A program made the position numbers and the translations under genes. A stretch of 64,000 nucleotides of DNA from Naegleria gruberi. Its lineage: Eukaryota. Below, in pieces: positions 9,001 through 64,000 of the stretch (position 1 is its first letter; every line of letters begins with the position of its first letter). The stretch lies in the NCBI GenBank assembly GCA_000004985.1, contig GG738915.1; one strand, written 5' to 3'. The notes under the pieces were generated by a model that saw only the letters and a list, made by a program, of their open reading frames with translations, had not been told where the DNA came from and did not search any database.

Positions 9001-12000
9001 GCTATCTGTATTATGAAGGGTGAAAAAGTTAAAACCATTGATGATGGTCTTGGTAACAAGTCTAAAGATTGGTGGGGTGCATCCAAGGAAATGATGTCAA
9101 GAAAGGATTTCTTAAAATATATTAAGAATTTTGATATGGGAGCATTGAATCAAGAAATTGTTGGTACTCTTACACCTATTTTGGCAGAAATGGATGTTGA
9201 AAAAATCAAACGTTCCAGTGCTGCTGCCTTTGCCCTTAACGAATGGTTGAATGCCCTAGTTAAATACTTTAGGGTTAACAGTGTTGTAGAACCAAAGAGA
9301 CTTGCATTGCAAGAAGCTGAACAAAAGTGTGCTGAAGCCGCCAGATATCTTGCTGAAAAGAAGAGGGAATTGGCTGAAATTCAAGGAATGATTGCACTCA
9401 AAGAAACTGAAAGAAAAGAATGTGAAGCAAAGAAGAATCAACTTGAACATGAATACCAACTTGTCAGTGTAAAGTTAGAAAGAGCTACAAAACTCATTGG
9501 TTTATTGGAAGGAGAAAAATTGAGATGGCAAGAAACATTAGCTAAAATTATGGAACAACAAACATGTATTAATGGAGACGTTATTTTAGCCTCAGGTATT
9601 ATTTCCTACCTTGGAGCCTTTACTTCTGAGTACAGAAGAAAGATTCTCAAGAAGTGGTCCAACAAATTGACCCAACATGGTATCAAATTCTCAGAAAATT
9701 TCACACTTTCAACAACTTTGGCTGAATCTATGGAAGTTAGAAATTGGATTATCAAGGAAGGTTTACCATCAGATGACTTTTCAGTTGAAAATGCTACTAT
9801 TGTCAAGAGAACTACCAATATTTGGCCACTGTTCATTGATCCACAAGGTCAAGCCATGGCCTGGATTAAGGAGAAGGAAAAACAACAAAAGAAAGATGCT
9901 GATTCCTTGTTAATCATTCAAATGTCCAACCCCAGTCTTATTAAGAGTTTGGAAAAGGCCATTACTCAAGGAACTACAACTATTGTTGAAGGTGTTGGAG
10001 AAGAATTAGATCCAGCATTGGAACCACTCTTAACTCAAAGAACTTATTACATTGGAGGTGTAAAGTATATCAATCTTAGTGATACTCCAACAATTTATAA
10101 TGATAACTTTAAACTCTATTTGGTTACTAGTCTTTCAAACCCTCACTATCTCCCTGAAGTTTCAACTAAAGTTCAAATTATTAACTTTATGATTACACCA
10201 AATGGTTTGGAAGAGCAATTGCTTGCTATTGTTGTCAAGATTGAAGAAAAGAAATTGGAAAGTGAAAAGAACAATTTGGCTGTACAGAATGCTAAATATC
10301 AAGAACAATTGAAGCATTACCAAGATAAGATTTTGCAATTGCTTGTTGAAACAACAAAGGAAAAATGTTGGATGATGACACTGTCATTAATACCCTCTCA
10401 TCATCAAAGCAAACCTCAAGAAAAATTGAACAAAAACAAATTGAAACAAAGAAGACTGAAAAGGATATTGATACCAAGAGAAACCTTTACCGACCAGTTG
10501 CTGAAAATGCAAGTACCTTATTCTTTGCTATTTGTGAATTGCCAAACGTTGATCCAATGTATCAATATAGTTTGAACTGGTACCAAGATTTGTTTACCCA
10601 ATGTGTAGTTGAATTGCCTCACGAAGAAAATAGATCCACCATTCAAAAGATTGAACAACTTAGAGACTTCTTTACTCATCAAATGTATACCAGAGTATGT
10701 AGATCATTGTTCCAGAAGGACAAGCTACTCTTCTCGTTATTATTGTGTATTCAATTGATGAGAAAGAAGAGCTTGATTGATCATGAAGAGTTGAAATTCT
10801 TACTTACAGGTACTAGCTCTGTCGTCAACTCTGATGAAACCACAAGAAAATTGCCAGAATGGATCACTCAGAACATGTACAATGAGTTATGTCAAATTGA
10901 TGGAATGTCAAGTGTCTTTAAGAACTTCAAACAAGAATTTTTCAATCACCTTGAAGCTTGGAAGAAGGTTTATGATTCATCCAAGCCTAATGAAGAACCA
11001 TATCCAGATAAATGGAACAACCTCTCAATATTACAAAAGATGATGGTTCTTAGAATTATCAGACCAGACAAACTTCTTCCAGCAGTTGAAACCTTTGTGG
11101 AAAAGAATATGGATAAGAGATTTATTGAGCCAAGTCAATTCAATTTGAAGGTTTCTTACATGGAATCTACTCCTGTAAAGCCACTCATATTTATTTTGTC
11201 ACCTGGTGTGGATCCTATGGAAAATCTTCGTAAATTTGCTGACCAAGAAGGTGTAGCCTTGAAGAGTTTGTCACTTGGTCAAGGTCAAGAAGAATTTGCT
11301 ATTGAAATGATTAACCAAGGAAGCTTCCAAGGAAATTGGGTTGTTTTACAAAACTGTCACGTTTTGCTTTCTTTCTTACCAAAGTTAGAAAAGATCATTG
11401 ATGATTTCGCCAGAAATGAAAATAAGCTAGCTGCAAATTATAGATTGTGGCTCACAAGTATGCCTAGTGAAAAATTCCCAGTCAGCGTACTTCAAAGAGG
11501 TGTAAAAATTACTAATGAGCCTCCTAAAGGTTTGAGAGCAAACCTCTTACAATCTTGGAATAGCGATCCTATCAATGATGCAAAATACTTTACTGGTTGT
11601 AAGAAGAGTAGGGAATTTAAGAAGTTATTGTTCGGTTTGACATTCTTCCATTCCTTGGTTCAGGAGAGAAGAACATTTGGTCCACTTGGTTGGAATATTA
11701 GATATGAATTTAACGATTCTGATTTGAACATCTCCTTGAAGCAACTTCAAATGTTTTTGAATGGAAAGGATTCAAATGTTCCTTTCAAGGCCCTTACCTA
11801 TTTAACTGGTGAATGTAATTATGGTGGTAGAGTTACAGATGACCATGATAGAAGAACTCTTATGGCAATTTTATCTGACTTCTATAATGAGGAAATTATT
11901 GAGGATGGTTACCAACTTTCACCTTCCGGTATTTACACTGTTCCAAATGGAGATAAGAAACATAGTGAATATATTCAAACAATCGAAAAATTCCCATCAA

Positions 12001-13049
12001 GCGAAACTCCAGAAGTATTTGGTTTGCACGAAAACGCTACCATTAGTAAGGATCAAACTGAGTCTAAACTAATGTTTGATGCATTACTTACCACTCAACA
12101 AAATAGTGCTCCTGAAACCAATGATGAAGATGACATTAATGAAAATTCTCATGAAACTGAAGTACTTTACGAATTAGCAGCAGATATCTTGACTAAACTC
12201 CCTGACAACTTTATTATTGAAGGAGATGGTGGCGCAGAGGCCAAGTTCAAGGTTGACTATCACGAAAGTATGAACACTGTATTTGTACAAGAGTTAATTA
12301 GATTTAACAAACTTTTGAATGCTATTAGAAACAGTCTTCAACAATTACAACTTGCATTGAAAGGTCTCACAGTCATGAGTAGTGATTTGGAACAATTGAG
12401 CAAGTCTCTTTCAAATGGTAAGGTACCTCTTGTATGGAGCAAGGCCAGTTATCCTTCTAGAAAACCTCTCAGAACATATATCCAAGATTTGATTAAGAGA
12501 ATTGAATTCTTTAATAATTGGTTTATTCATGGTAAACCATCAGTGTATTGGTTGAGTGGTTTCTACTTTACCCAATCATTCTTGACAGGTGTAAAGCAAA
12601 ACTTTGCCAGAAAGAATAAGATTGCTATTGACCAAATTGATTTTGAATTTGAAATTTTGGACAAGTACTATGAAGAAAACATTTCCTTGCCAGAACCAGA
12701 ATGTGGTTGCTATGTTTATGGATTGTTCTTGGAAGGTGCTGCTTGGGATAGAAAGAAGAAGTGTTTGACAGATCCAAGACCAAAACAATTGTTTGATGAA
12801 ATGCCAATAATTTGGTTCAAACCTGTAGATCGTAGTGTTGAACAAACAGAACCAACAAGTTCAGAGGTTAAAACCAAATCTAATACCTATGTTTCACCAC
12901 TCTACAGAACTAGTGAAAGAAGAGGTACCCTCACCACAACTGGTCACTCGACTAACTTTGTGATGAGTATCAAGTTGCCAATGGCCTCAGATAATAATGA
13001 AAAGTATTGGATTAAGAGAGGATGTGCCTTACTTTGCCAACTTGATTAA
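1..13049 (+). CDS. Axonemal dynein heavy chain (inner-arm-type motor), multi-exon; 5' end probably upstream of the window. Likely exons ~1-117, ~345-607, ~655-814, ~856-10364, then 10365-13049 after an apparent 1-nt frameshift.
   Basis: A 3252-aa ORF (817..10575) and an 894-aa ORF (10365..13049) in different frames together read as one dynein heavy chain. The AAA1 P-loop GPAGTGKTETTKDLAKA is at about 4801-4850. It is followed by AAA2-4 P-loops GFPMSGKT, GPTGTGKS and GVGGSGRQ, a coiled-coil stalk around 8600-9600, and AAA5/6 plus the C-terminal domain in the second ORF. The GPAGTGKTETTKDL motif is characteristic of axonemal rather than cytoplasmic dynein. The upstream small ORFs 402..632 and 647..844 start with TTG and join the main ORF through short GT..AG introns (GTATGT at 608, acceptor at about 654; donor at 815, acceptor at about 855). 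Bases 1-117 are an open frame ending at a GTAAGT donor at 118. Confidence 0.9.
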
Positions 13050-33280: not shown

Positions 33281-33353
33281 CGCCCCACGTGGGGCTCGAA
33301 CCCACGACCGTTGGATTAAAAGTCCAACGCTCTACCGACTGAGCTAGCGGGGC
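33281..33353 (-). tRNA. tRNA-Lys (anticodon UUU)
   Basis: The reverse complement GCCCCGCTAGCTCAGTCGGTAGAGCGTTGGACTTTTAATCCAACGGTCGTGGGTTCGAGCCCCACGTGGGGCG folds as a cloverleaf. It has a 7-bp acceptor stem (with one G-U pair), a GTTCGAG T-loop, and the anticodon loop CTTTTAA. Confidence 0.85.
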
Positions 33354-43087: not shown

Positions 43088-45700
43088 ATGTCATCAACAT
43101 TGCCCTCCAAAACAACAGCAACAACGACGAGCAATGCATCTTCTAAAAACAATAACAACAATAACAACCAAACAAACAAGAGAGTACTGAGTGTTTCAAC
43201 CACCTCAACGACACCAACCATAAACATTGAACAAAACAATAGATCGAAAAAGTTGCCCTCCTTACTAATCTCTCGATCTGAGAGAAGTACAGATGATGAG
43301 GATCAACCTCAGGATAATTTCTACTACTCATCAAATAACAAGAACAATACGAACAATCATCAGAATCATCAGAGAAATAATGATGTCGTTCACCCGTTCA
43401 ATAATAATCACCATTCAAAAAAGAGCAACAATAGGAACGAGAGAGTCTTCACCTCGGTTGTTCCATCGAGTCCTTCATCACCATTAGCCTTGCCGAATAC
43501 GACACAGGGAAAGAAAATGCATGCCTTTGAGAATGATTTCAATAAGAGACAACAACAACAACGAGATGGAAGTGTTTCTGTTAGTGATGATGACTCTTCA
43601 CAAAAATCGCTTATTCCAGTACAGTTACTTGGTTTGCGATCAAAGACAATGACTGCTCTGATTATTACCTTTCTATTGATTATTGCCTTGTGTGTTATTG
43701 GATTGTCCATTTCGTTTGATTCGTCTTTTAGGAGTGTGGAAGAGAGAGAGGCAACCGATTCAATTCTCAAACTATCAAAAGCTCTACAAGATGATTACAC
43801 AATTCTAGCCAATCGATTATATGAATATGCTGCTTGGGATGATGTTTATAATGTATTACAGGAAGAGAGTGCAACAAAAGCACAAGATCTTCTCAAGTCA
43901 TTCTTCGCCTGTGAATACATGGATAGGGTAAATTTGAATTTTGCCATGTATTACTTGCCAAATGGAAGCTTTCTTACTGGACTTGGATGTTATAATCAAG
44001 TTGAGTTATCGGTCTTCCCAACAGAACTCACCAATTTGGATCTATCCTTTTTTTCTCAAGTTTACACACCCACAACAAGGATGAGAACGTACATGATTCC
44101 AACAATGACTGTTGAGGATTTACTGGAACAGAGTGGACAAACCAGACCCTCCACATCATCAAGTACCAATATTTTGATGGTCACTGTACAACCAACTCAA
44201 ACAACTGATAATACAGTTTCTAATGGTTTGGCAATCTTTGCAAGTTATATTACAATGAAACTATTGGAGGAAGAATCAAAGAGAGTTAGATTGTGTGCAA
44301 CTTTTTACAATGTCAATAATACAGAGGATAGAAAATATTTGGAAAAGTACTTTTCTCCTGCAAGTGGACAAACTTTGGATCAATATATTTCCCTACAAGC
44401 ATCTTCAATGGTGAGTCCAAATGATACCTGGACATTTAATGGACCTTTCAAAATGTTGGCAGGCTCAGTGAAAGACACGTCCAAAAGAAAATGTGTTAGT
44501 GATGATGATGGAGGTAAGAGAATTTCCTCATTCAAAATTTTGTCAGATTCCAATGGAGTGGGAAGAGTTGTGATGAGAACAGATCTTCCAAGAGATATCT
44601 ATAATCTTGGTTGGTATTCATTCCTCTATACAATTATTGCATTCCTCGTGTTGATTATTATTTTGACATTTTCAATTTTACTATTTGTGGAATTTGTAGT
44701 CTTGAGGAGAGTAATCAAGATTGGATCATTTGTGAGAAATGTTACCACTGAGAGCGACACTTCAAAGAGAATTCAAAAGATGGGAAGAGACGAGCTTGGA
44801 AATTTGTCTCGTGACATTAACAAAATGTTGGAAGCATTGGAATTTTCACAGGAAAAGCTTGCTCGTGACAATAGCTTAATGGAGAAGATTCTTGAAAGAA
44901 CAGCCCTCGAAGAAGAAAAGAGTCGTTGTCTATTGAATTCAATTACGGATTTTATTGCCACTGTGGAGTGTTCTACTGGTTTGATTGTGAGCATCAACTC
45001 ATCATTTGAAAATAAGGTTTTAAAGAAGAAACAAGTAACCAGCGATGATAATAAGGAAGTATTCGATATTTTCGAATATCTCAAAGAATTTTCTGACAAC
45101 AAACAATTATTGGAAAAATTGGACAAATTGTCACATACAGAGGAGAATTTTGATACAATGGTAACAACAGGTTTAGGTAGCAAGTACCCAGTCTCTATCA
45201 ATGTAAATAAGACCAAGATGACACTCAGAGAGGGACAAGTTGGAGAAGCTTTCATTGTAGTGATGAAAAACCTCTCCGAACAAAAGGATTTCAGAAATCT
45301 AGTTCAACAAGAGAAACTTTCTCAAATCCAACAAATTACCAAATTTGAAAAGATGATGAATGATCAAGATATGAGAAAACGATTCAGAGCTTTTGCAGAA
45401 AAGGAACAAAGCGTTGAAAACTTCCTCTTCTTGGAAGATATTGAAGTTTACAAATCACTGCCAACCACAAAGGAAAGAGCCATTCTCCAAGAAGCAATTA
45501 CAAAGAAATATCTGCAAAATGATAGTGAATTCCCACTCAATGTTTCACAAAAAGTATTAGAAACAGAGTATAAGAAAATTTCAATAGGTTATGGACAACT
45601 TTCTCTCTTTGATAGACTAGAAACCATTGTAAAGGGTATGATTTTAGGTGATACATTCCAAAGATTTATTGATCATGAACAAAATGAGCTCAATAAATAA
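43088..45700 (+). CDS. Receptor-like RGS protein with N/S/T-rich cytoplasmic N-terminus, TM1, ~300-aa extracytoplasmic sensor region, TM2, HAMP, PAS-like domain and a C-terminal RGS domain
   Basis: 870-aa ORF. TM1 (ALIITFLLIIALCVIGLSISF) is at about 43645-43715 and TM2 (YSFLYTIIAFLVLIIILTFSILLFVEFVVL) at about 44618-44706. A HAMP-like linker with the DE-L-G-x-L-x-x-x-I-N-x-M signature (GRDELGNLSRDINKMLEALE) follows immediately after TM2. A PAS-like segment follows (LLNSITDFIATVECSTGLIVSINSSFENKV ... GEAFIVVMKN). The RGS domain is at about 45360-45690 (SVENFLFLEDIEVYK ... GDTFQRFIDH). Confidence 0.6.
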   Translation: MSSTLPSKTTATTTSNASSKNNNNNNNQTNKRVLSVSTTSTTPTINIEQNNRSKKLPSLLISRSERSTDDEDQPQDNFYYSSNNKNNTNNHQNHQRNNDVVHPFNNNHHSKKSNNRNERVFTSVVPSSPSSPLALPNTTQGKKMHAFENDFNKRQQQQRDGSVSVSDDDSSQKSLIPVQLLGLRSKTMTALIITFLLIIALCVIGLSISFDSSFRSVEEREATDSILKLSKALQDDYTILANRLYEYAAWDDVYNVLQEESATKAQDLLKSFFACEYMDRVNLNFAMYYLPNGSFLTGLGCYNQVELSVFPTELTNLDLSFFSQVYTPTTRMRTYMIPTMTVEDLLEQSGQTRPSTSSSTNILMVTVQPTQTTDNTVSNGLAIFASYITMKLLEEESKRVRLCATFYNVNNTEDRKYLEKYFSPASGQTLDQYISLQASSMVSPNDTWTFNGPFKMLAGSVKDTSKRKCVSDDDGGKRISSFKILSDSNGVGRVVMRTDLPRDIYNLGWYSFLYTIIAFLVLIIILTFSILLFVEFVVLRRVIKIGSFVRNVTTESDTSKRIQKMGRDELGNLSRDINKMLEALEFSQEKLARDNSLMEKILERTALEEEKSRCLLNSITDFIATVECSTGLIVSINSSFENKVLKKKQVTSDDNKEVFDIFEYLKEFSDNKQLLEKLDKLSHTEENFDTMVTTGLGSKYPVSINVNKTKMTLREGQVGEAFIVVMKNLSEQKDFRNLVQQEKLSQIQQITKFEKMMNDQDMRKRFRAFAEKEQSVENFLFLEDIEVYKSLPTTKERAILQEAITKKYLQNDSEFPLNVSQKVLETEYKKISIGYGQLSLFDRLETIVKGMILGDTFQRFIDHEQNELNK

Positions 45701-53880: not shown

Positions 53881-53953
53881 CGCCCACCGTGGGGGTCGAA
53901 CCCACGACCACAAGGTTAAGAGCCTTGCGCTCTACCGACTGAGCTAGACGGGC
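53881..53953 (-). tRNA. tRNA-Lys (anticodon CUU)
   Basis: The reverse complement GCCCGTCTAGCTCAGTCGGTAGAGCGCAAGGCTCTTAACCTTGTGGTCGTGGGTTCGACCCCCACGGTGGGCG is a cloverleaf with anticodon loop CTCTTAA. It lies 55 nt downstream of the vWA gene stop. Confidence 0.85.
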
Positions 53954-54123: not shown

Positions 54124-55572
54124 ATGCAAGACAATCCACCTTCAACAACCACACCGAAAGCGGAACCTGTTGAACAACAACAAGAGGAACAACCGGAGAC
54201 TGTTAGCATTGATGATAAAACAGTCTCAACATCAAATCAACAAGATATAACTAGGGATGAAGCTGCTTCATTGTATGATGATGTGTTATCATCGTCAAAT
54301 AATAATTCGAATGTTGAGAGTAATGTAACTGCAGAAGATGATTCGACAAATAATAATAATAATCAGGACAATGATCAAACAGGATCACTAGAAGGAGAAA
54401 AGGAACAACAAACAACACCTAGTACGAATAACTCTGTTGCGGATAGCAAGAATGAATCTAAAGAAAACACTAAGTCAAACAACACCACCGGCAAATATTA
54501 CAGCAATAATAATAATAACAGAGGCAACTTTAAAGGTGGAAGAGGATTCTATAATAATAACAACAATAGAGGATATTATAATAACAATAACAGAAATAAT
54601 TATAATAACAATAGCAGAGGAGGTTATAACAATAATAATAACAGAAATGGAGGTTATAACAACAATAGAGGAAACTACAATGATTACCAAGGCAATTCAT
54701 ACAACCAAGGCTCAAATGACCTCAAGAGAAATTATCAATCATACAACAATGGCAGTGGCAGTAGCAGTAGCAATAATAATAATAGAGGATATAACAATAA
54801 TAACAACTACAATGGTGAGCAATCGTACAATTATCAATCTTATGATAATAAGAGAAGAAGAGAAGATAACGCACCAGCTGCCACAAGTAGTACTACTGCG
54901 GATAACACTGAAAAACCATTGTCTGAAGTGAGAGGAGTAGCTGCTTTCTTATCAAAGGATTCACAAAATACTAGAAGTGGAGGAGATTTTAGAAACAACA
55001 ATTCAAAACAATATAATAATCAAGGAGGTTATCAAAATAAGCCATACAATAATAATCAAGGAAGTTATCAAAGTAATAACAATAATAGTACCAGCAATCA
55101 AGGATATAACAATAATCGTCCATACAATAATAATAATAATACCAACAACAACAAGACATATAACAACGATTATCAAAAGAACAGTGGCAACCAATTCCAA
55201 GATCGTTCAAACTGGGGAAATAGTGGAAATTCTTCTGATTTCCAACAAAGAAATTACCAATCACAATCATATGGTGGAGGATATAACAATACTAATAACA
55301 ATAATAGATATGAAAATGATTATAGAAAGGATGATGCTGATAGATCTAGAGGATATGATCAGCAGTATGGTGGCTATAAAAATGATTATAGAGTGGATTC
55401 AAATGTTCAAAGACAACAATACAACACACAACAATATCAAAATAATAATAATAATAATAATAATATTGAACCAGCTTTACCAAGTGGATGGAAGCAATAC
55501 TTTGATGATAAAACTGGTAAATATTATTATCATAATGAAAGAACGGACACAACACAATGGGAAAGACCATAA
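54124..55572 (+). CDS. Low-complexity N/Y/G/R-rich (RGG/prion-like) protein with a C-terminal WW domain
   Basis: 482-aa ORF dominated by NNNNRGYYNNNNR, GGYNNN and QGSYQSNNNN tracts. The last about 35 aa (LPSGWKQYFDDKTGKYYYHNERTDTTQWERP) form a canonical WW domain (W...Y..H.T..TQW..P). Alternate-frame ORFs within 54437-55621 are repeat artefacts. An (AAT)8 run lies at about 55441-55465. Confidence 0.6.
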   Translation: MQDNPPSTTTPKAEPVEQQQEEQPETVSIDDKTVSTSNQQDITRDEAASLYDDVLSSSNNNSNVESNVTAEDDSTNNNNNQDNDQTGSLEGEKEQQTTPSTNNSVADSKNESKENTKSNNTTGKYYSNNNNNRGNFKGGRGFYNNNNNRGYYNNNNRNNYNNNSRGGYNNNNNRNGGYNNNRGNYNDYQGNSYNQGSNDLKRNYQSYNNGSGSSSSNNNNRGYNNNNNYNGEQSYNYQSYDNKRRREDNAPAATSSTTADNTEKPLSEVRGVAAFLSKDSQNTRSGGDFRNNNSKQYNNQGGYQNKPYNNNQGSYQSNNNNSTSNQGYNNNRPYNNNNNTNNNKTYNNDYQKNSGNQFQDRSNWGNSGNSSDFQQRNYQSQSYGGGYNNTNNNNRYENDYRKDDADRSRGYDQQYGGYKNDYRVDSNVQRQQYNTQQYQNNNNNNNNIEPALPSGWKQYFDDKTGKYYYHNERTDTTQWERP

Positions 55573-56679: not shown

Positions 56680-59600
56680 TCAACAGTCGTTTAATAAACG
56701 TTCTTGATGTCTCTTGTTAAATTCAACATGGTCCAATAAGTGAGTGACAATATTTTGAGATTGTTGGGCTTCATAGTACAATGCTTCTTGGGGTGAGCTC
56801 TCTCTTTGAATATCTTGCTGTTCATCATGATCATCTGAGTATTCTTCGTCCATGAAAGATCTAGGGTGTGAAAAACTAAGACCTCTATTACTAAGTGTAT
56901 TATGTGAAATAGAGGAAGATCGACTATTGTAAAAGTCCTCCCTGGATGTGAATTTGGCAAGGACATTATTTTGGAAACGTTCAGCGTATGAAATTGGCTC
57001 CACACTACTGATACCATTTGGATCTTTTCTTAAAATCTTCGTTTTGATTAAAGTTTCCATCTTCTTATTCATGTCATAGAGCTGCAAAATATCAATTACA
57101 GAAGAGTACATGATGGCTGCTCTATTGTAAGGAGAATCCAAGTCTATAACTTGAATTCCTCCCTTATAAGTTTTGTGGAATGGCTCATAAAACTTAATCT
57201 CATTTGGTAAACTTTCCACACTAATAACAGCTGGGTCATCTTCAGCTAAACCTAGAAGGAGCGAATAATCCATAATCTTGAGAGATTTGAGAAAGTTGGA
57301 ATCAATAGTCAATTGTTGTTTGAATCTTTCATAAATTGCCTTATTTTCAAAAATTATTTTACGCTTTCTAGTAAAATCATTATCAAGTAATAACTTGTTT
57401 CTGTTTTGAACATGACTGGCATATGCATCCTCAGCATTGGATGTAGATTTGAATTTAAGAGTATTGGCATAACCATCAAAGGTAGGAAGGTTGTTTCTGT
57501 TAATCCAACTTCCTTTCAAGTCAAACTTGGTATAGACACTCATTGGATCATATTGTGCTCCACGATCCTTTGCTAATCTACAATTCAAAGCATTGTTAAT
57601 GACAATAAATTTGATTTTAAAGTTGGCTGTCATTTTCAATTCATAAATACCAAATATTTTCACAATAAATGTATCTCTAAATGTTGTGTAATGCTTGTAA
57701 AAGAATTGAATATTGTCCAATAGTAATTTCAATTCATCATCATTAATAGTCTTGATCATAAATTGAGAATCGTAAGTGAATAGGAAGAAACTACCTGACT
57801 TTCCTTCACTGAAATTATTTCTCACAGATTCCAACACTACAGAAGTTGGTTCAAAAGATCTCTTGTAAGATTCCATAATAGAATGAATATCTGCTGAACC
57901 AGTAAGATTATCAACAAAGTAGTAGCTTCTCAAGTGATGGAAAGCTGTTGGATAATACTCAGTGACACTAATCTTGTGTTTTGTAACAAGGTTGTAAAGT
58001 CCAGGATGTGTTTTGGATCTCAGAGATGGATGGAAGAGTTTCTTCATTAGTGGAGAACCGTACAGAGTATTTCTATGAGAGGTCAATTCAGATTCTGAAT
58101 AATTGAATTGTTTGATAATGTCTTCACATTCATGAGCTTGTTTCATACAGTGTTGAGTAGCCAACAAGACACAAAAAATCAAATCTCTTCTGACCATATA
58201 GTCAATGGCAACGTTTGAAAGAGAATCCTCAAAGAATTTTTGATCTTGTTGTGATAGATATTTCAAGAAACGTTCTTGGTCTGCTTCAGAACCCTCATCC
58301 ATAATACCTTCGAAGAGTAATCTTTGATGGTAAAGTGATTCCTTAGCTTTTTCAATGGCCATTCTTCTTCTAGAGAGAAGATCGAGTTCCTCATCCACAG
58401 CAACACCTTCCGCTAAAATGGAAGTATAGAGTGTTGAGCTTTTGATAACACCCTTCTTCTTGATTCTATCGAGAATATTTTGTCCCTCATCGTTTTCTGT
58501 AAGCATACAAAGAAAGTCCTTAAATTTCTTAATATGTCTCAAAATGATAGGATCTGAAAGTAAGATTAGTGACAAAATGAGACCTTCAATACTCGATACA
58601 ATAATTGAAATATTACGAGCAATAATTGTGAAAATAGTAATTCCAGCATCACTAAAGTCCTCCCCTTTTTGTTTCAATTCAGAAATCTTACCCTTCAAAA
58701 TAACACTTGAAAGTAAAGTTCCCAATAAAGAAATGCCAATAACACCACTGAAAATACATTGTCTAATAATGATACCATTTCTTAATTTTTGAGTACCTGG
58801 TAAACCTCTTCTCAAACTTGACCAAACATATAAACAAATACCAATACCTATAATGGCCATAATACCATTGATACCATAGATGGCATAACCAATATATAAT
58901 TCATCAGGAAGAATTGAACATGCCTGATTGTTTTGTGTTAGTGTACTCTCAACTACAGATCCTACAATTGCAAGAATGGTGAGTGTCCACATGCAAATAT
59001 GATACATGATGTGTTTTTTCTTATTTCCCTTGATGGGATTCGTAGCAACATTGAGTAAATCCAATACAATGCAAAATCCATAACAATATGAGCAAAAATT
59101 AAATCCATATTCGAATATAGCAACAACTATACACATGTTTGGTTCATAGATCGTCTCTGGAAAGTGTAAAATTAGCAATATGAGAAAGTGTTTCACGCAA
59201 CTGAGAGCTTCAGTGGCCAGAAAAGCCATAATGAGAGCAAAATTCTTTCTACCTCTCAATTCAGCAAGTCCAACAAAGGCCACCATCAATATGATACAAA
59301 AGCAAAAGCTTAATGCTGCAAACACCAATTCAAAATAGGAGCACACTCTTGCCAAGAGTGCTATCCTCATCATTAATAAATCCATGGTAGGATCAGTTGA
59401 ATTTGTTCCATTATTATTTGAAGAATTATCAAGTAATACCAAGTGTTCCATTGTTGTAAATTCATTTTTCCAAAATTCGTCAATTCCAATTTTAAAAGTT
59501 GCTGCACCTTTTCGAGAGTGAATGAATGAATCGTAATTATCATCATCCTGATGTTCCTCCTCCTCATGATCATCGTAATGAAAAGGCAGTGAATTAGAAG

Positions 59601-59964
59601 GGGTGGTAAATCGATCTCTAAACAGACTTGTCTTTAATTTGTTACTATACATTTGGTGAATAGAATTTTGATTTGATAAACTTGTATGATCCGGTGTTAA
59701 ATTATTGTTACTCGAAAGGCTAAGAGATGGTCGGATGATAACTACATGATGAAGAAATAATAAACATGAAAGGAGGAGAAGGAAAAGGACAATATACAAG
59801 GAGGTAGTCATGATTGTTGAAAAGGAACAGAATGATTTTGTTGATGAAGATGATGTACTAGTTATTCCGTCATTGCTATTCGCCTGTTGCTTTCCAGCAG
59901 CAACACTAACACAACAAGAAGAATCGGACTTGCTCGTTGTGAGTCTTGTTGGAGATGATGGCAT
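56680..59964 (-). CDS. GPCR-PIPK: N-terminal 7-transmembrane receptor-like domain fused to a C-terminal phosphatidylinositol phosphate kinase catalytic domain
   Basis: 1094-aa continuous ORF. The N-terminus has a signal/TM followed by seven predicted TM helices between about aa 195 and 480. The C-terminal about 400 aa carry PIPK signatures: GKSGSFFLFTYDSQFMIKTINDDELKLL (PIP5K GKSGSxFYxxxDxRFxIKTI) and MDYSLLLGL (activation-loop-proximal MDYSLL). The same architecture is known from Dictyostelium RpkA and oomycete GPCR-PIPKs. Confidence 0.85.
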   Translation of the reverse strand: MPSSPTRLTTSKSDSSCCVSVAAGKQQANSNDGITSTSSSSTKSFCSFSTIMTTSLYIVLFLLLLSCLLFLHHVVIIRPSLSLSSNNNLTPDHTSLSNQNSIHQMYSNKLKTSLFRDRFTTPSNSLPFHYDDHEEEEHQDDDNYDSFIHSRKGAATFKIGIDEFWKNEFTTMEHLVLLDNSSNNNGTNSTDPTMDLLMMRIALLARVCSYFELVFAALSFCFCIILMVAFVGLAELRGRKNFALIMAFLATEALSCVKHFLILLILHFPETIYEPNMCIVVAIFEYGFNFCSYCYGFCIVLDLLNVATNPIKGNKKKHIMYHICMWTLTILAIVGSVVESTLTQNNQACSILPDELYIGYAIYGINGIMAIIGIGICLYVWSSLRRGLPGTQKLRNGIIIRQCIFSGVIGISLLGTLLSSVILKGKISELKQKGEDFSDAGITIFTIIARNISIIVSSIEGLILSLILLSDPIILRHIKKFKDFLCMLTENDEGQNILDRIKKKGVIKSSTLYTSILAEGVAVDEELDLLSRRRMAIEKAKESLYHQRLLFEGIMDEGSEADQERFLKYLSQQDQKFFEDSLSNVAIDYMVRRDLIFCVLLATQHCMKQAHECEDIIKQFNYSESELTSHRNTLYGSPLMKKLFHPSLRSKTHPGLYNLVTKHKISVTEYYPTAFHHLRSYYFVDNLTGSADIHSIMESYKRSFEPTSVVLESVRNNFSEGKSGSFFLFTYDSQFMIKTINDDELKLLLDNIQFFYKHYTTFRDTFIVKIFGIYELKMTANFKIKFIVINNALNCRLAKDRGAQYDPMSVYTKFDLKGSWINRNNLPTFDGYANTLKFKSTSNAEDAYASHVQNRNKLLLDNDFTRKRKIIFENKAIYERFKQQLTIDSNFLKSLKIMDYSLLLGLAEDDPAVISVESLPNEIKFYEPFHKTYKGGIQVIDLDSPYNRAAIMYSSVIDILQLYDMNKKMETLIKTKILRKDPNGISSVEPISYAERFQNNVLAKFTSREDFYNSRSSSISHNTLSNRGLSFSHPRSFMDEEYSDDHDEQQDIQRESSPQEALYYEAQQSQNIVTHLLDHVEFNKRHQERLLNDC

Positions 59965-60850: not shown

Positions 60851-60931
60851 CGCAGACTGCAGGATTCGAACCTACGAAGGTTTCCCCAACAGATTTCAAG
60901 TCTGTCGCCTTAACCACTCGGCCAAGTCTGC
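60851..60931 (-). tRNA. tRNA-Ser (anticodon UGA) with long variable arm
   Basis: The reverse complement GCAGACTTGGCCGAGTGGTTAAGGCGACAGACTTGAAATCTGTTGGGGAAACCTTCGTAGGTTCGAATCCTGCAGTCTGCG has a 7-bp acceptor stem, a GCCGAGTGGTTAAGGC D-arm, an ACAGA/TCTGT anticodon stem with loop CTTGAAA, a variable arm of about 14 nt and a GGTTCGAATCC T-arm. Confidence 0.8.
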
Positions 60932-61074
60932 TACATATATTTTCGCCATTTTTGCTTAAGGGCTCCACTACAATCACATGGATTAATTTTTTTGCTCATT
61001 TTGTTCTCTTTAGAATTTCCTTTTTCGGAGAGATATCATGAATACAACTGATAACTTTTTTGTTAACAATGTAT

Positions 61075-61147
61075 GCGCAAGTAGATCAGTGGTTAGATCG
61101 TCCGCCTCACACGCGGAAGGTCGCGGGTTCAAACCCCGCCTTGCGTA
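61075..61147 (+). tRNA. tRNA-Val (anticodon CAC)
   Basis: GCGCAAGTAGATCAGTGGTTAGATCGTCCGCCTCACACGCGGAAGGTCGCGGGTTCAAACCCCGCCTTGCGTA folds with a 7-bp acceptor stem (G1-U72), T8-A9, a GATC/GATC D-stem, an anticodon stem TCCGC/GCGGA with loop CTCACAC, and a GCGGG-TTCAAAC-CCCGC T-arm. Confidence 0.85.
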
Positions 61148-61228
61148 AAATTTTATTGGGAAAAATCATTTTATTTTCAAGCATGTTTTTTGCTATTATT
61201 TTCCAATGCAAACAGTGTGAAAAGTTTA

Positions 61229-64000
61229 TTAGAGAACAAAGTTTAATGTGGAAACAACCAAAGCAATCATCAATACACCAACCATCTTCAAAGAATGAGA
61301 ATGTGAAATAATAGAAGCTCTTGGAACTTGTGGGCTTGAAAATCCACTCACTGAATTGGAGGCACCTGGCTGAACAGTAGTATCAGGTTCAACAGTTGGA
61401 TCTGCAGAAGGTCTTGTCTCTGTGGCAACATCAAAGAACAATGAGGAAACCTTAATTGGATCCTTGTCTGGACTTTCTGAAACACCACATGTAGAAACAG
61501 AGCCCCATTTCTTAATTTCACCTGATGTGATAAATCTGGAGGTTTCTTCTTGTCCCTGATCACCAATAAATCTTACATTATCCACAATCAAATCTCTGTA
61601 CGGACTTGTAGCAGTGATGGTACCAGAGAAATAGAAGGAAAATCTTTGGAATTGTTGAACTCCTGTAAAACTCAAGTCAGAGAGTGGAATTCTAACTCTT
61701 GTGAGACGAGTTTCATCAATCTTGTAGAATTGAGTATAGGTGCTGTTAGTTGTCAGAGTTTTGATTGTTGTAAATTGTTTGGTATTTGAATTGTAAGAAG
61801 CAAAGCTCATTGTCAATTCAAAAGAGCCACTGCTATTAGTTTCTCTCACAAAGAATTCGAAATACTTGTAAATGGAAGTATCAACAGCAAAAGAAGTGTA
61901 TCTGTACAATTGTAATCCACCTCTTCTGAAACTCATGTAGAATGATGAGCTTCCACATACTGGATTAATAGAGTAGGATGTATTCGAAACTACATAATCA
62001 CCACTACCTGAATTGGAATAGACTTGTGCAGTAAATCCAGTTGACTTGGAAGGATCTCCATCATTGTACAGATACAAGGCCTCTGACTCATTCTTTACAA
62101 CACAAGGTGAAGTAGTAATAACAAATGGTGGTAAATTACAAGTTCCACTACAATACAATTGGGCTCTCAAATGTCCCTTTGGATTTTCAGAACTTGAAAC
62201 CTTTACAAAAATTCTTCCTTTCAACAAGTCAACCCATTCACCATGAGATAATTGTAAACCAAATCTACTTTGAGAATATGGAGATGGAACATAGGAATAT
62301 GAAATAATTCTTTCAACAGAACCAACGGATCCAACACCCACTTCAACAAGAGTTGCCTTGTCATTCATATTATGATGCAGAATCAAATCTAACATCTTGT
62401 CATTGTAATTGAGAAAACCAAAAACTGTACCAACTGCACTACTCGATCCAGATGCTAGTGGAGTAATGGAATTTTGTTGACACATTTCCAATCGACCAAC
62501 AAATCTATCTTCCTTCAAGAAAACTCTGTAGGTTTCTCTTGGATTTTCTGGAAGACTTGGATTGGCAGTTCCACAATAATTATTTGGACAAGTGGCAGTG
62601 ATAACAATATCTTTAGAGTTACTCCATGAACCATAATCAACAAATCCATACCATTCCTTCTTATTATTTTTGGAATAGGTATTTTCAAATTTGATATACA
62701 AGTGACCAGTAGTAGAATTGAATATTATATTATGATAATATTCAGTTGGATAATTGACAACGTCTTGGAATGAATTGGACAATTTCAAAGTCTTTGGATC
62801 TGATGTAGAGGTTATAGAGAATTTAGAACCTTTTGGATATTGAATGACCATGACAACCCAATCGCCAGAAGCTGAAGATTGCATTTGTAAACTCATTGGG
62901 TTTGGAGGAGGAAGATCAAAAGCATATTTCATGGCATAGAAACCACGTGATGGAACATTGGATTGCATATAGAAAGTTCCACCAGAAGACATTCCACCAG
63001 CAGTACTTGTTTGGATGTTTCTAGTGAGGTCTGTAAGGTACATTCTTGGAATTCTTGTATTGTAGGAAATATATTCTGGATGGGAAATACCATATGGATC
63101 GATGATTACAGAACTAGTAATATTGTAATTCAAAGCTCTAAATTGAACGTAGGATTCACCAATAAATGGACAAACAGAGGCGTTGTTCCACTCTGATCTA
63201 ATTTCACAACCTTCAAAGTTTTGAATTGCATCATTACCACTAATCCATGCACCAGCAGCAACACCAGTGATCGATCCATCTATATCCATGAAAACAGCAC
63301 CCTTTCACAATATCTATTTCTGGTATGGAGCTTGAAATAATTGTCAAGATAGGACAATGCACCAGCTCTTCTATATTGATCAGTGACAAAGTTTCTAAAA
63401 GTCACATTTCTCAACAATTCAGCACCGCCGTTATCATAAGTTTCATAACCCTTAATGACCACAGTTGTTGAGGCATATAAATTTGGTCTTGTTCTATTTC
63501 CCTTATCAACATTTGGTCTCAAAGTATAGTCTCCAATATTATCCGATTCTCCAATCATGATTGAATCGGTAATGTATGAAGTACCAGGTGGAGAATTCAT
63601 CTGTCTCATATTATCAGTCAAGTACAAGTTTTTGAAAACGATATTTCCACAACGAGCCCAAATTCCATAATTTCTCAACTTGTAAGCTGTGAAATTATCA
63701 ATGAGAGCCTCAATAGATGGATAGTAACCAGCTTGTTCAGTTGTGCCATCAGCTTTTTCCATATCATCCATGAATAGTCCATTATGTCCACTGTGAGCTA
63801 CATTTCCTGAAAATGGTTTAGGTGGAGCAGTTCTTGGATTGATAGAACCTGGGGCGTACAATGAGGCACTGGCACCTGTTGGGAAAGTTGGCCTAAATAA
63901 GAATTAAAAACACTTAGGTGATCATGAATATTTTGTAAAAAACTTACATTCTAATAACAATTTGAAAATTAATCAAGTAATAAAGATGATAACTTACGTA
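61229..64000 (-). CDS. Large secreted, probably GPI-anchored cell-surface protein with a CHRD-like domain; 5' end beyond the window; contains an apparent frameshift near 63290
   Basis: Two long minus-strand ORFs (63280..63861 and 61229..63289) overlap by about 10 nt in different frames. Coding sequence continues to the window edge. The C-terminus is a Ser-rich stalk followed by a hydrophobic tail (MVGVLMIALVVSTLNFVL), typical of a GPI-anchor signal. IFVKVSSSENPKGHLRAQLY resembles the conserved C-terminal strand of CHRD domains (YVNVHT..NP.GEIRGQ). There are many N-glycosylation sequons and Cys residues. Confidence 0.45.

What the first reader, a model, noticed from the sequence alone, without database searches (positions are those of the whole stretch)
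56680..59964. GPCR-PIPK fusion (7TM receptor domain fused to a PIP kinase catalytic domain)
One continuous 1094-aa ORF combines seven predicted TM helices with a C-terminal PIPK catalytic domain (GKSGSFFLFTYD...IKTI, MDYSLLLGL). This links receptor activation directly to phosphoinositide synthesis. The architecture is rare and lineage-restricted; it is known from Dictyostelium RpkA and oomycetes. It is a useful taxonomic and signalling marker for this genome. The membrane domain has a long N-terminal ectodomain of about 120 aa with a separate N-terminal hydrophobic segment.
Basis: partly seen in the sequence, partly recalled or inferred. Interest (0 to 1): 0.55.

Follow-up and report, generated by a model that had tools for sequence, protein, structure and literature searches.

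The report
Naegleria GPCR-PIPK receptor–lipid kinase fusion
This gene of the amoeba Naegleria gruberi really does fuse a seven-helix receptor to a phosphoinositide kinase, but this exact protein was already catalogued as a GPCR-PIPK in 2018, so the finding is correct and not new.

Summary
An uninterrupted 1094-codon ORF lies at 56680-59964 on the minus strand. It encodes an N-terminal hydrophobic segment, a roughly 115-aa glycosylation-rich ectodomain and seven TM helices plus helix 8. The 7TM AlphaFold model has pLDDT 82.8, and all top-50 PDB fold matches are GPCRs. A conserved linker and a complete PIPK catalytic domain follow (Pfam PF01504, E=1.6e-53). The G-loop, the IKT lysine, DLKGS, MDYSL, IDIL and the activation-loop KK are all intact.

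The window is Naegleria gruberi. From Met52 the ORF is 100% identical to XP_002670481.1 / UniProt D2VZQ3. Van den Hoogen et al. 2018 (mBio) list that protein by accession as the single N. gruberi GPCR-PIPK.

- The family's LRxGI hallmark is a variant here (VRRDLIFCVLLAT).
- That motif probably corresponds to the N-terminal α1 helix of canonical PIPK cores (suggestive, not proven).
- The activation loop carries the type-I-like Glu, which predicts PI4P 5-kinase activity.

Ligand, G-protein coupling and kinase activity remain unknown for the whole family. Verdict: already known, low interest.

The parts
56680..59964 (-). Whole ORF, 1094 aa plus stop codon: the GPCR-PIPK gene as a single exon
   Evidence: From Met52 it is 100% identical to XP_002670481.1 / D2VZQ3.
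59812..59964 (-). aa 1-51: S/T-rich N-terminal extension upstream of the annotated start (Met52). It is uncertain whether this stretch is translated.
   Evidence: The public model starts at Met52. An 'MTT' aligns at this position in three Naegleria-type orthologues, and P0004 starts there.
59737..59799 (-). aa 56-76, LYIVLFLLLLSCLLFLHHVVI: N-terminal hydrophobic segment. It would be a signal peptide if translation starts at Met52, and a signal-anchor or extra TM if it starts at Met1.
   Evidence: Hydropathy 2.78. In the orthologues P0002 and P0004 the equivalent segment lies 50-110 aa inside the protein.
59392..59736 (-). aa 77-191: poorly conserved extracellular region with 4 N-glycosylation sequons, three of them just before TM1
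58528..59391 (-). aa 192-479: 7TM GPCR-fold domain.
- TM1 192-232
- TM2 242-267
- TM3 275-308
- TM4 315-343
- TM5 358-383
- TM6 389-432
- TM7 440-469
- helix 8 472-479
Conserved features: Cys278/Cys349 extracellular pair, NP310 in ICL2, YH322..W326 in TM4, LRRGLPGT 384-391 after TM5, LLSDP at the end of TM7.
   Evidence: AF2 model with pLDDT 82.8. Foldseek top 50 are all GPCRs. Family alignment and invariant columns. Pfam 7tm_2 is only sub-threshold at 12.8 bits.
58195..58527 (-). aa 480-590: helical linker conserved among Heterolobosea (e.g. FLCMLTEN, LYHQRLLFEGIMDE). It has no detectable counterpart in the other lineages aligned here.
58156..58194 (-). aa 591-603, VRRDLIFCVLLAT: the Naegleria variant of the family hallmark 'LR(x)9GI' motif. 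It probably corresponds to the α1 helix of the PIPK core.
   Evidence: Aligned with LRRELSLCVLSGL, LRFELLKNILVGI, RpkA LRNNILTCSLRGI and PiGK LRKEVLHFTTRGI. hhalign places it on the canonical helix ELIFMMLMGIRTAV. Predicted helical, with block pLDDT 68-87.
56965..57825 (-). aa 714-1000: PIPK catalytic domain (Pfam PF01504).
- G-loop 721-727
- Lys738
- DLKGS 815-819
- MDYSL 898-902
- IDIL 957-960
- activation loop 961-990, with KK 967-968 and Glu970
56683..56964 (-). aa 1001-1094: S-rich and acidic low-complexity C-terminal tail, not conserved between species

Best explanation
This is the single GPCR-PIPK (type IV PIP kinase, RpkA-like) gene of Naegleria gruberi.

Shown here:
- One exon encodes a membrane protein with a signal or anchor segment and a glycosylated ectodomain.
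- It has a 7TM domain with a GPCR fold, homologous to the 7TM domains of other GPCR-PIPKs.
- A helical linker ends in the family's LRxGI-type motif.
- The cytosolic PIPK domain has every catalytic residue intact.

Inferred:
- Topology places the ectodomain outside (or in the lumen) and the kinase in the cytosol against the membrane.
- The kinase is active and most likely converts PI4P to PI(4,5)P2, because the specificity position of the activation loop carries the Glu of type I PIP5Ks and not the Ala of type II.
- An unknown extracellular or luminal ligand changes the 7TM conformation. That change passes through TM7, helix 8 and the linker to the N-terminal helix of the kinase, altering its activity or its orientation on the membrane. 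Local PIP2 synthesis would then be coupled directly to sensing.
- By analogy with Dictyostelium RpkA, the likely uses are phagosome/endosome function and density or chemical sensing.

Whether heterotrimeric G proteins also take part is open.
For: - Identity: 100% match to XP_002670481.1 / D2VZQ3, which van den Hoogen 2018 lists as the N. gruberi GPCR-PIPK.
- Kinase: PF01504 at E=1.6e-53. PI5P4K and PIP5K structures are hit by sequence and by fold, with TM-score 0.64-0.74 normalised to the target. The catalytic residues are invariant across eight GPCR-PIPKs.
- Membrane domain: seven helices plus helix 8 at pLDDT 82.8. All top-50 fold hits are GPCRs.
- Homology of the 7TM domain: a profile of the 7TM + linker region finds 15 proteins in 1.84e9, and most full-length ones carry PIP5K. 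Several pass the Pfam 7tm_2, Dicty_CAR or Frizzled thresholds. All seven TMs align, as does the extracellular Cys pair.
- Conservation: the linker motif is present in all family members found. Orthologues in N. fowleri, N. lovaniensis and Willaertia magna keep the whole architecture at 57-73% identity in the linker + kinase region and 40-56% in the 7TM domain.
- Substrate: Glu970 aligns with the Glu of KKLEH in zebrafish PIP5K1A and with Ala381 of PIP4K2B. Activation-loop swaps exchange substrate specificity (Kunz 2000/2002, as cited in PMC5262455).
- Biology: rpkA-null Dictyostelium has reduced PIP and PIP2 and phagocytosis defects.
Against: - No GPCR-PIPK has a known ligand, a demonstrated kinase activity or product, or demonstrated G-protein coupling.
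- The Naegleria 7TM domain is very divergent. It is below the Pfam threshold, and the TM3 'SWN' motif of the family is replaced.
- The LRxGI motif deviates at three of its four named residues (V for L, A for G, T for I).
- The substrate prediction rests on one residue and on literature I did not read directly.
- RpkA's kinase domain bound PI3P as well as PI4P.
- The structural models come from shallow alignments of 8-12 sequences.
Confidence: 0.85

Rival explanations
1. The 7TM domain is only a membrane anchor or targeting module that places a constitutively active PIP kinase on a particular compartment such as phagosomes or endosomes. There is no ligand sensing.
For: No ligand is known for any family member. 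RpkA localises to endosomal and phagosomal membranes. The ectodomain is poorly conserved even within Naegleria.
Against: A simple anchor would not need seven helices with a GPCR fold. Nor would it need a conserved extracellular Cys pair and conserved intracellular-loop motifs (NP in ICL2, RxGLPG after TM5, LSDP at the TM7 end) kept across supergroups.
Confidence: 0.2
2. It acts as a conventional GPCR, a guanine-nucleotide exchange factor for one of Naegleria's slow-exchange Gα subunits. The attached kinase is then a downstream effector, or it supplies PIP2 for PLC.
For: Naegleria has conventional Gα subunits limited by nucleotide exchange, yet only one candidate GPCR was listed in the N. fowleri inventory, which did not consider the GPCR-PIPK. 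The fold resembles G-protein-coupled class A and B receptors in active complexes, and the model has a helix 8. This is model C of van den Hoogen & Govers.
Against: There is no DRY-type motif at the TM3 end. No family member has been shown to couple to a G protein. Many Naegleria Gα subunits self-activate and are controlled by 7TM-RGS proteins instead.
Confidence: 0.25
3. The kinase domain is a pseudokinase, and the protein is a receptor or scaffold without lipid-kinase activity.
For: Kinase activity has never been demonstrated for a GPCR-PIPK. This is model E.
Against: All ATP-binding, catalytic and substrate-binding motifs are present. They are invariant across eight GPCR-PIPKs from distant lineages.
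Confidence: 0.03
4. The fusion is an artefact: two neighbouring genes read through as one ORF, or an assembly chimera.
For: None found.
Against: The frame is continuous over 3.3 kb. The same architecture, with a conserved linker, occurs in N. fowleri, N. lovaniensis, Willaertia magna and an environmental relative, and in Amoebozoa and other supergroups.
Confidence: 0.01

Closest known systems
D2VZQ3_NAEGR / XP_002670481.1, the N. gruberi GPCR-PIPK listed in van den Hoogen et al. 2018 (mBio 9:e02119-17), Tables S1 and S2b
   Same: The same protein: 100% identity over 1043 aa.
   Different: The ORF in the window extends 51 codons further upstream to an earlier ATG. [quoted passage not shown]
Dictyostelium discoideum RpkA (DDB_G0283615), the founding GPCR-PIPK
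   Same: The order of parts: 7TM, then an LR(x)9GI helix, then a PIPK domain. Also shared are the extracellular Cys pair, the TM7 end 'L[ST]xP' and the catalytic motifs.
   Different: RpkA has a short N-terminus with no extra hydrophobic segment or ectodomain, a canonical LRNNILTCSLRGI motif, and a low-complexity linker. The 7TM identity between Naegleria and non-heterolobosean family members is only 15-18%. I could obtain RpkA only as a truncated sequence.
Phytophthora GPCR-PIPKs (PiGK1-12, e.g. PITG_05519 / PiGK4)
   Same: The same architecture and hallmark motif (LRKEVLHFTTRGI).
   Different: Oomycetes have 9-12 or more paralogues, while Naegleria has one. The oomycete motif lies about 35 aa before the kinase N-lobe strands. 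In Naegleria about 85 aa of extra helices intervene.
Type I PIP5K (e.g. zebrafish PIP5K1A, PDB 4TZ7) and type II PI5P4K (e.g. PIP4K2B, PDB 1BO1)
   Same: The same kinase fold and catalytic residues. The GPCR-PIPK profile scores 191.6 bits against type I and 190.8 bits against type II. The activation-loop Glu is as in type I.
   Different: Types I and II are soluble peripheral enzymes without a 7TM domain. Published phylogenies place GPCR-PIPK kinases in a separate type IV clade; I did not recompute this.
Plant and protist 7TM-RGS proteins (AtRGS1, the 28 N. fowleri 7TM-RGS proteins) and other 'GPCR-bigrams'
   Same: The same design principle: a 7TM receptor fused to a cytosolic signalling domain.
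   Different: The C-terminal module is different (a GAP rather than a lipid kinase), and the 7TM family is unrelated.

Membership tests
GPCR-PIPK (type IV PIPK, RpkA family) | N-terminal domain with seven TM helices and a GPCR fold | tested here: met
   Hydropathy gives seven peaks. The AF2 model has seven helices plus helix 8, with pLDDT 82.8 and pTM 0.79. The Foldseek top 50 against PDB are all GPCRs.
GPCR-PIPK (type IV PIPK, RpkA family) | 7TM domain homologous to the 7TM domains of other GPCR-PIPKs (a family-specific 7TM cluster, eLife 2025) | tested here: met
   A profile of the 7TM + linker region retrieves PIP5K-bearing proteins at E=1e-4 to 1e-8 out of 1.84e9 representatives. All seven TMs and the family motifs align. 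Similarity outside Heterolobosea is weak, at 15-18% identity.
GPCR-PIPK (type IV PIPK, RpkA family) | Diagnostic LR(x)9GI motif between the 7TM and PIPK domains | tested here: met
   Present as a conservative variant, VR(x)9AT (VRRDLIFCVLLAT, aa 591-603), at the homologous position. The Arg is invariant. Other Naegleria species have VR(x)9GT, and the fragment P0006 has VR(x)9GI. The 2018 table does not flag the motif as absent in this protein.
GPCR-PIPK (type IV PIPK, RpkA family) | C-terminal PIPK catalytic domain with DLKGS, MDYSL and the activation-loop (di)lysine | tested here: met
   PF01504 at E=1.6e-53. DLKGS 815-819, MDYSL 898-902, KK 967-968. The fold matches PI5P4K and PIP5K.
GPCR-PIPK (type IV PIPK, RpkA family) | The kinase domain falls in the type IV clade, separate from types I, II and III | tested here: inconclusive
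   No tree was built. phmmer scores to the kinase domains of other GPCR-PIPKs are mixed: 100 bits to Cavostelium and 65-67 bits to P0008 and P0011, but 37-46 bits to P0012, P0014 and P0016. The best score to a solved type I or II structure is 52 bits. The family profile scores type I and type II equally. The published tree included this protein.
GPCR-PIPK (type IV PIPK, RpkA family) | Function: ligand sensing, lipid-kinase activity, G-protein coupling | not testable with these tools
   None of these has been established for any family member.
Secretin-type GPCRs (Pfam 7tm_2, PF00002) | Score at or above the Pfam gathering threshold of 20.6 bits | tested here: not met
   12.8 bits, E=0.07. More typical GPCR-PIPKs do pass (P0008 scores 54.7 bits). 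The resemblance is therefore real but remote, and this protein is not filed as a class B receptor.
Type I PIP5K (PI4P 5-kinase) | Glu at the activation-loop specificity position (KKxEH), versus Ala in type II | tested here: met
   Glu970 aligns with the Glu of zebrafish PIP5K1A KKLEH and with Ala381 of PIP4K2B. This supports 'works like a PI4P 5-kinase', not membership of type I. The architecture and the published phylogeny place it in type IV.

The most novel reading that the evidence does not exclude
The 'LRxGI' hallmark may not be a separate linker element unique to GPCR-PIPKs, as published. It may be the N-terminal α1 helix of the canonical PIPK core (…QMGIRxS… in type I, …QWGVxHT… in type II).

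If so, the receptor's TM7 and helix 8 are tethered directly to a structural helix of the kinase. A conformational change or dimerisation of the receptor could then re-orient the kinase on the membrane without any G protein.

Naegleria has many self-activating Gα subunits and very few candidate GPCRs, so this protein could be a G-protein-independent sensor. Alternatively, it could be one of the very few exchange factors for the organism's conventional Gα subunits, overlooked in the 2022 inventory.
Probability: 0.3. Interest if true: 0.4.

Novelty: already known. Interest (0 to 1): 0.15.

Why it matters
As a discovery it matters little. The gene, its architecture and its evolutionary meaning (an ancient link, dating back to the last eukaryotic common ancestor, between 7TM sensing and phosphoinositide synthesis) were published in 2018, and the 7TM family was re-examined in 2025.

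The value here is confirmation, plus some annotation detail:
- GenBank still names the protein only as a PIP5K-family protein.
- The 2022 inventory of Naegleria G-protein signalling did not list it as a 7TM receptor candidate.
- Its N. fowleri orthologue belongs to a lethal human pathogen and has no counterpart in animals apart from sponges, so it is a conceivable drug target.

The open questions for the whole family are its ligand, whether the kinase is active and on which lipid, and how the receptor talks to the kinase. Sequence analysis does not answer them.

Tried and rejected
- Three word-indexed homologue searches returned only Naegleria-type sequences or short fragments, and no named RpkA or PiGK. 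The queries were the full protein, the 7TM-to-kinase core, and a 12-sequence 7TM alignment.
- The exact-sequence contig look-up found no record.
- Pfam placement of the 7TM domain in a GPCR class failed, with 7tm_2 below threshold. GPCR status rests instead on fold and on transitive homology.
- Pseudokinase: rejected, because all catalytic residues are present.
- Gene-fusion artefact: rejected, because of the continuous frame and conservation across species.
- The test of 'LRxGI = PIPK α1 helix' gave mixed results. The hhalign shuffle control timed out. A first block comparison was spoiled by insert columns. The clean helix-only comparison gave the expected GI-on-GI register, but its score was not significant against column shuffles (441 of 5000, z=1.4). 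The idea therefore rests on collinearity and is reported only as suggestive.
- The start codon (Met1 or Met52) could not be settled from sequence.
Full report
**1. Observation**

The window holds an uninterrupted ORF at 56680..59964 on the minus strand, 1094 aa from an ATG. The window has about 35% GC, so stop codons are frequent and a 3.3-kb open frame is not a chance event.

Pfam finds a PIP5K domain (PF01504, 182 bits, E=1.6e-53) at aa 714-1000. Over aa 209-415 it finds only a sub-threshold match to 7tm_2 (12.8 bits against a cut-off of 20.6).

Solved PI5P4K and PIP5K structures are matched by sequence (best hit 6UX9, E=3.4e-13).

Kyte-Doolittle hydropathy shows one N-terminal hydrophobic segment (aa 58-76, score 2.78). 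It then shows seven peaks between aa 196 and 476, with TM3 the weakest.

**2. Provenance, and what is already published**

Van den Hoogen et al. 2018 (mBio, PMC5784254) report GPCR-PIPKs in 'two Naegleria species'. They list one gene each for N. gruberi and N. fowleri in Table S1. In Table S2b they give D2VZQ3_NAEGR with this very sequence, without flagging the motif as absent.

The family was described in 2006 for Dictyostelium RpkA and Phytophthora. It is now reported in all eukaryotic supergroups except plants. A 2025 eLife survey confirms that the 7TM domain alone defines the family and recovers members from Discoba.

The finding is therefore correct but already known.

**3. Independent test of the membrane domain**

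Word-indexed homologue searches reached only Naegleria-type sequences.

I then built a profile of the 7TM + linker region only (aa 190-640, no kinase) and ran it exhaustively against 1.84 billion representative proteins. It gave just 15 hits at E<=1e-3.

The two strong hits are an environmental Naegleria-like protein and Willaertia magna KAL9652835.1.

The weak hits match TM1-TM5, and most full-length ones carry PF01504:
- The hits with PF01504 are P0008, P0009 (Cavostelium), P0011, P0012 and P0014. P0016 was not scanned, but its sequence shows the catalytic motifs.
- Several pass Pfam GPCR thresholds: 7tm_2 at 54.7 bits, Frizzled at 44.9 bits, Dicty_CAR at 38.3 bits.

In an alignment of these proteins all seven TM segments line up. 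Conserved features, in ORF numbering, are:
- Cys278 before TM3 and Cys349 in ECL2, the classical GPCR disulphide pair
- Pro310 of an 'NP' motif in ICL2
- His322 and Trp326 in TM4
- Gly387 and Arg395 of 'LRRGLPGTQKLR' after TM5
- Leu469 of 'LLSDP' at the TM7 end

AlphaFold2 on this alignment gives a confident model with mean pLDDT 82.8 and pTM 0.79. It has helices at aa 192-232, 242-267, 275-308, 315-343, 358-383, 389-432 and 440-469, plus a short helix 8 at 472-479.

Foldseek against the PDB returns 156 hits at E<=1e-3. The top 50 are all GPCRs, including the angiotensin AT2 receptor, calcitonin/amylin, PTH1R and PAC1 receptors, opioid and orexin receptors, OXGR1 (TM-score 0.75) and Smoothened.

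**4. The kinase domain**

HMMER alignments to PIP4K2A and PIP4K2B let the residues be mapped onto 1BO1 numbering:

| Element | Position in ORF | PIP4K2B equivalent |
|---|---|---|
| G-loop GKSGSFF | 721-727 | |
| Lys of IKT | Lys738 | K150 |
| DLKGS | 815-819 | |
| Asp of MDYSL | Asp899 | D278 |
| Asp of IDIL | Asp958 | D369 |
| activation-loop KK | 967-968 | |

All are invariant in an alignment of eight GPCR-PIPKs from Heterolobosea, Amoebozoa and unnamed GC-rich relatives.

A profile of that alignment hits type I zebrafish PIP5K1A (191.6 bits) and type II PIP4K2B (190.8 bits) about equally.

The AlphaFold2 model of linker plus kinase (pLDDT 67.8, pTM 0.73) matches only PI5P4K and PIP5K structures, with TM-score 0.64-0.74 normalised to the target.

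The second refutation criterion (a missing catalytic core) is not met either.

At the activation-loop position that distinguishes type I from type II, the protein has Glu970. This aligns with the Glu of KKLEH in PIP5K1A and with Ala381 of PIP4K2B.

Activation-loop swaps, and a single-residue swap, are reported to exchange substrate specificity. I know this from Kunz et al. 2000 and 2002 as cited in PMC5262455; I did not read those two papers. I therefore infer a PI4P 5-kinase that makes PI(4,5)P2. This is an inference: no GPCR-PIPK has a demonstrated substrate or product.

**5. The linker and the hallmark motif**

The family's diagnostic 'LR(x)9GI' motif is present at the homologous position as VRRDLIFCVLLAT (aa 591-603). 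Related forms are:
- Other Naegleria species: …LLGT
- Willaertia: IRRDLIFCILFAT
- Fragment P0006: VRRDIMVCIFVGI
- Cavostelium: LRFELLKNILVGI
- RpkA: LRNNILTCSLRGI
- A P. infestans GPCR-PIPK: LRKEVLHFTTRGI

The Arg is invariant.

I tested the idea that this motif is the N-terminal α1 helix of canonical PIPK cores. Examples of that helix are …ELMSAIQMGIRQSI… in type I and …PLLAVLQWGVDHTM… in type II, taken from the paper's Table S2.

Evidence for the idea:
- hhalign between the type IV block and canonical PIPKs gives one continuous local alignment (probability 99.9%, E=4e-31). It starts at this helix with GI on GI.
- The helix is predicted with good local confidence.
- The Foldseek alignments span 390-423 columns of a 468-residue query, so they probably reach back to it.
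- In the P. infestans protein the spacing to the first kinase strands is canonical.

Evidence against: the helix segment scored on its own is not significant against column shuffles (7.23 against 5.60±1.17; 441 of 5000). The GI-on-GI register is nonetheless the best of all offsets across the N-lobe.

I report this as suggestive only.

**6. N-terminus**

The hydrophobic segment at aa 56-76 would be a signal peptide if translation starts at Met52, the annotated start. An 'MTT' aligns there in three species, and P0004 starts there.

In N. fowleri and in P0004 the equivalent segment lies 50-110 aa inside the protein, which looks like a signal anchor or an eighth TM.

Either way, the region with N-glycosylation sequons at N88, N180, N185 and N188 faces outside or into a lumen, and the kinase faces the cytosol. 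The choice of start codon stays open.

**7. Mechanism**

What is shown is the anatomy. The coupling is inferred. Published models range from direct conformational activation of the kinase to conventional G-protein signalling.

In Dictyostelium, loss of RpkA lowers PIP and PIP2 and impairs phagocytosis and defence against Legionella.

Naegleria has both self-activating and conventional Gα subunits and 28 7TM-RGS proteins. The 2022 inventory listed only one candidate GPCR and does not mention this protein. Both a G-protein-independent role and a role as a rare exchange factor therefore remain possible.

**8. Context**

The neighbourhood is an ordinary eukaryotic gene set with nothing functionally linked. 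It includes dynein heavy chain, a ZIP transporter, NFACT, Gpi1, a polo-like kinase, F-box/LRR proteins, a mitochondrial carrier, VWA proteins and four tRNAs.

**9. Verdict**

Novelty: already known, as the same accession is published as a GPCR-PIPK. Interest is low (0.15). The only increments are annotation details and a suggestive reinterpretation of the LRxGI motif.

Noticed in passing
window 43088-45700 (+): An 870-aa ORF with an unusual architecture:
- an N-rich N-terminal tail
- a TM at aa 190-208
- a CHASE4 sensor domain (PF05228, 35.9 bits, aa 232-406)
- a second TM at aa 516-534
- a HAMP-like stretch
- a C-terminal RGS domain (PF00615, 52 bits, aa 752-863)
This is a bacterial-type two-TM extracellular sensor fused to a eukaryotic Gα GAP domain. 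The 2022 Naegleria G-protein paper describes 7TM-RGS proteins. A full-text search for CHASE together with RGS or Naegleria found no description of a CHASE-RGS protein, and that paper holds no 'CHASE'.
   Followed up: partly
window 59812-59964 (-), and orthologues P0002 and P0004: The gene model is ambiguous at the 5' end. The ORF extends 51 codons upstream of the annotated Met52. In N. fowleri and in an environmental relative, the N-terminal hydrophobic segment lies 50-110 aa inside the protein. It would then be a signal anchor or eighth TM and not a cleaved signal peptide.
   Followed up: partly
literature: PMC9283941 compared with N. fowleri NF0081820 (= P0002): The 2022 inventory of N. fowleri G-protein signalling lists a single cAR-like GPCR candidate and does not mention the GPCR-PIPK orthologue. 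That orthologue had been catalogued in 2018.
   Followed up: partly
window 60851-60931 (-) and 61074-61148 (+): tRNA-Ser(TGA) and tRNA-Val(CAC) sit divergently 0.9-1.2 kb upstream of the 5' end of the GPCR-PIPK gene. Two tRNA-Lys genes are at 33281-33353 and 53881-53953.
   Followed up: no
window 817-10575 (+) and 10365-13049 (+): Two long ORFs overlap in different frames. The second carries the dynein heavy chain D6, AAA-lid and C-terminal domains. Together they probably form one dynein heavy chain gene interrupted by an intron or a frameshift near 10.4-10.6 kb. The first ORF was not scanned.
   Followed up: no
window 54124-55572 (+): A 482-aa protein made almost entirely of Asn-rich low-complexity sequence, with RGG/YNNNN-like repeats. 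It ends in a single WW domain (PF00397, 47 bits).
   Followed up: no
window 61229-63289 (-): A 686-aa ORF with a C-terminal hydrophobic tail, possibly a GPI or TM anchor. Its only Pfam match is a sub-threshold hit to CEMIP domain X (20.1 bits against a cut-off of 27.6). Function unknown.
   Followed up: no
ORF aa 480-590 (window 58195-58527, -): The segment between helix 8 and the LRxGI-type helix is strongly conserved among Naegleria and Willaertia (FLCMLTEN, LYHQRLLFEGIMDE, FLKYL). It has no counterpart in the amoebozoan or other GPCR-PIPKs aligned here, so it looks like a heterolobosean-specific helical insert of unknown role.
   Followed up: partly
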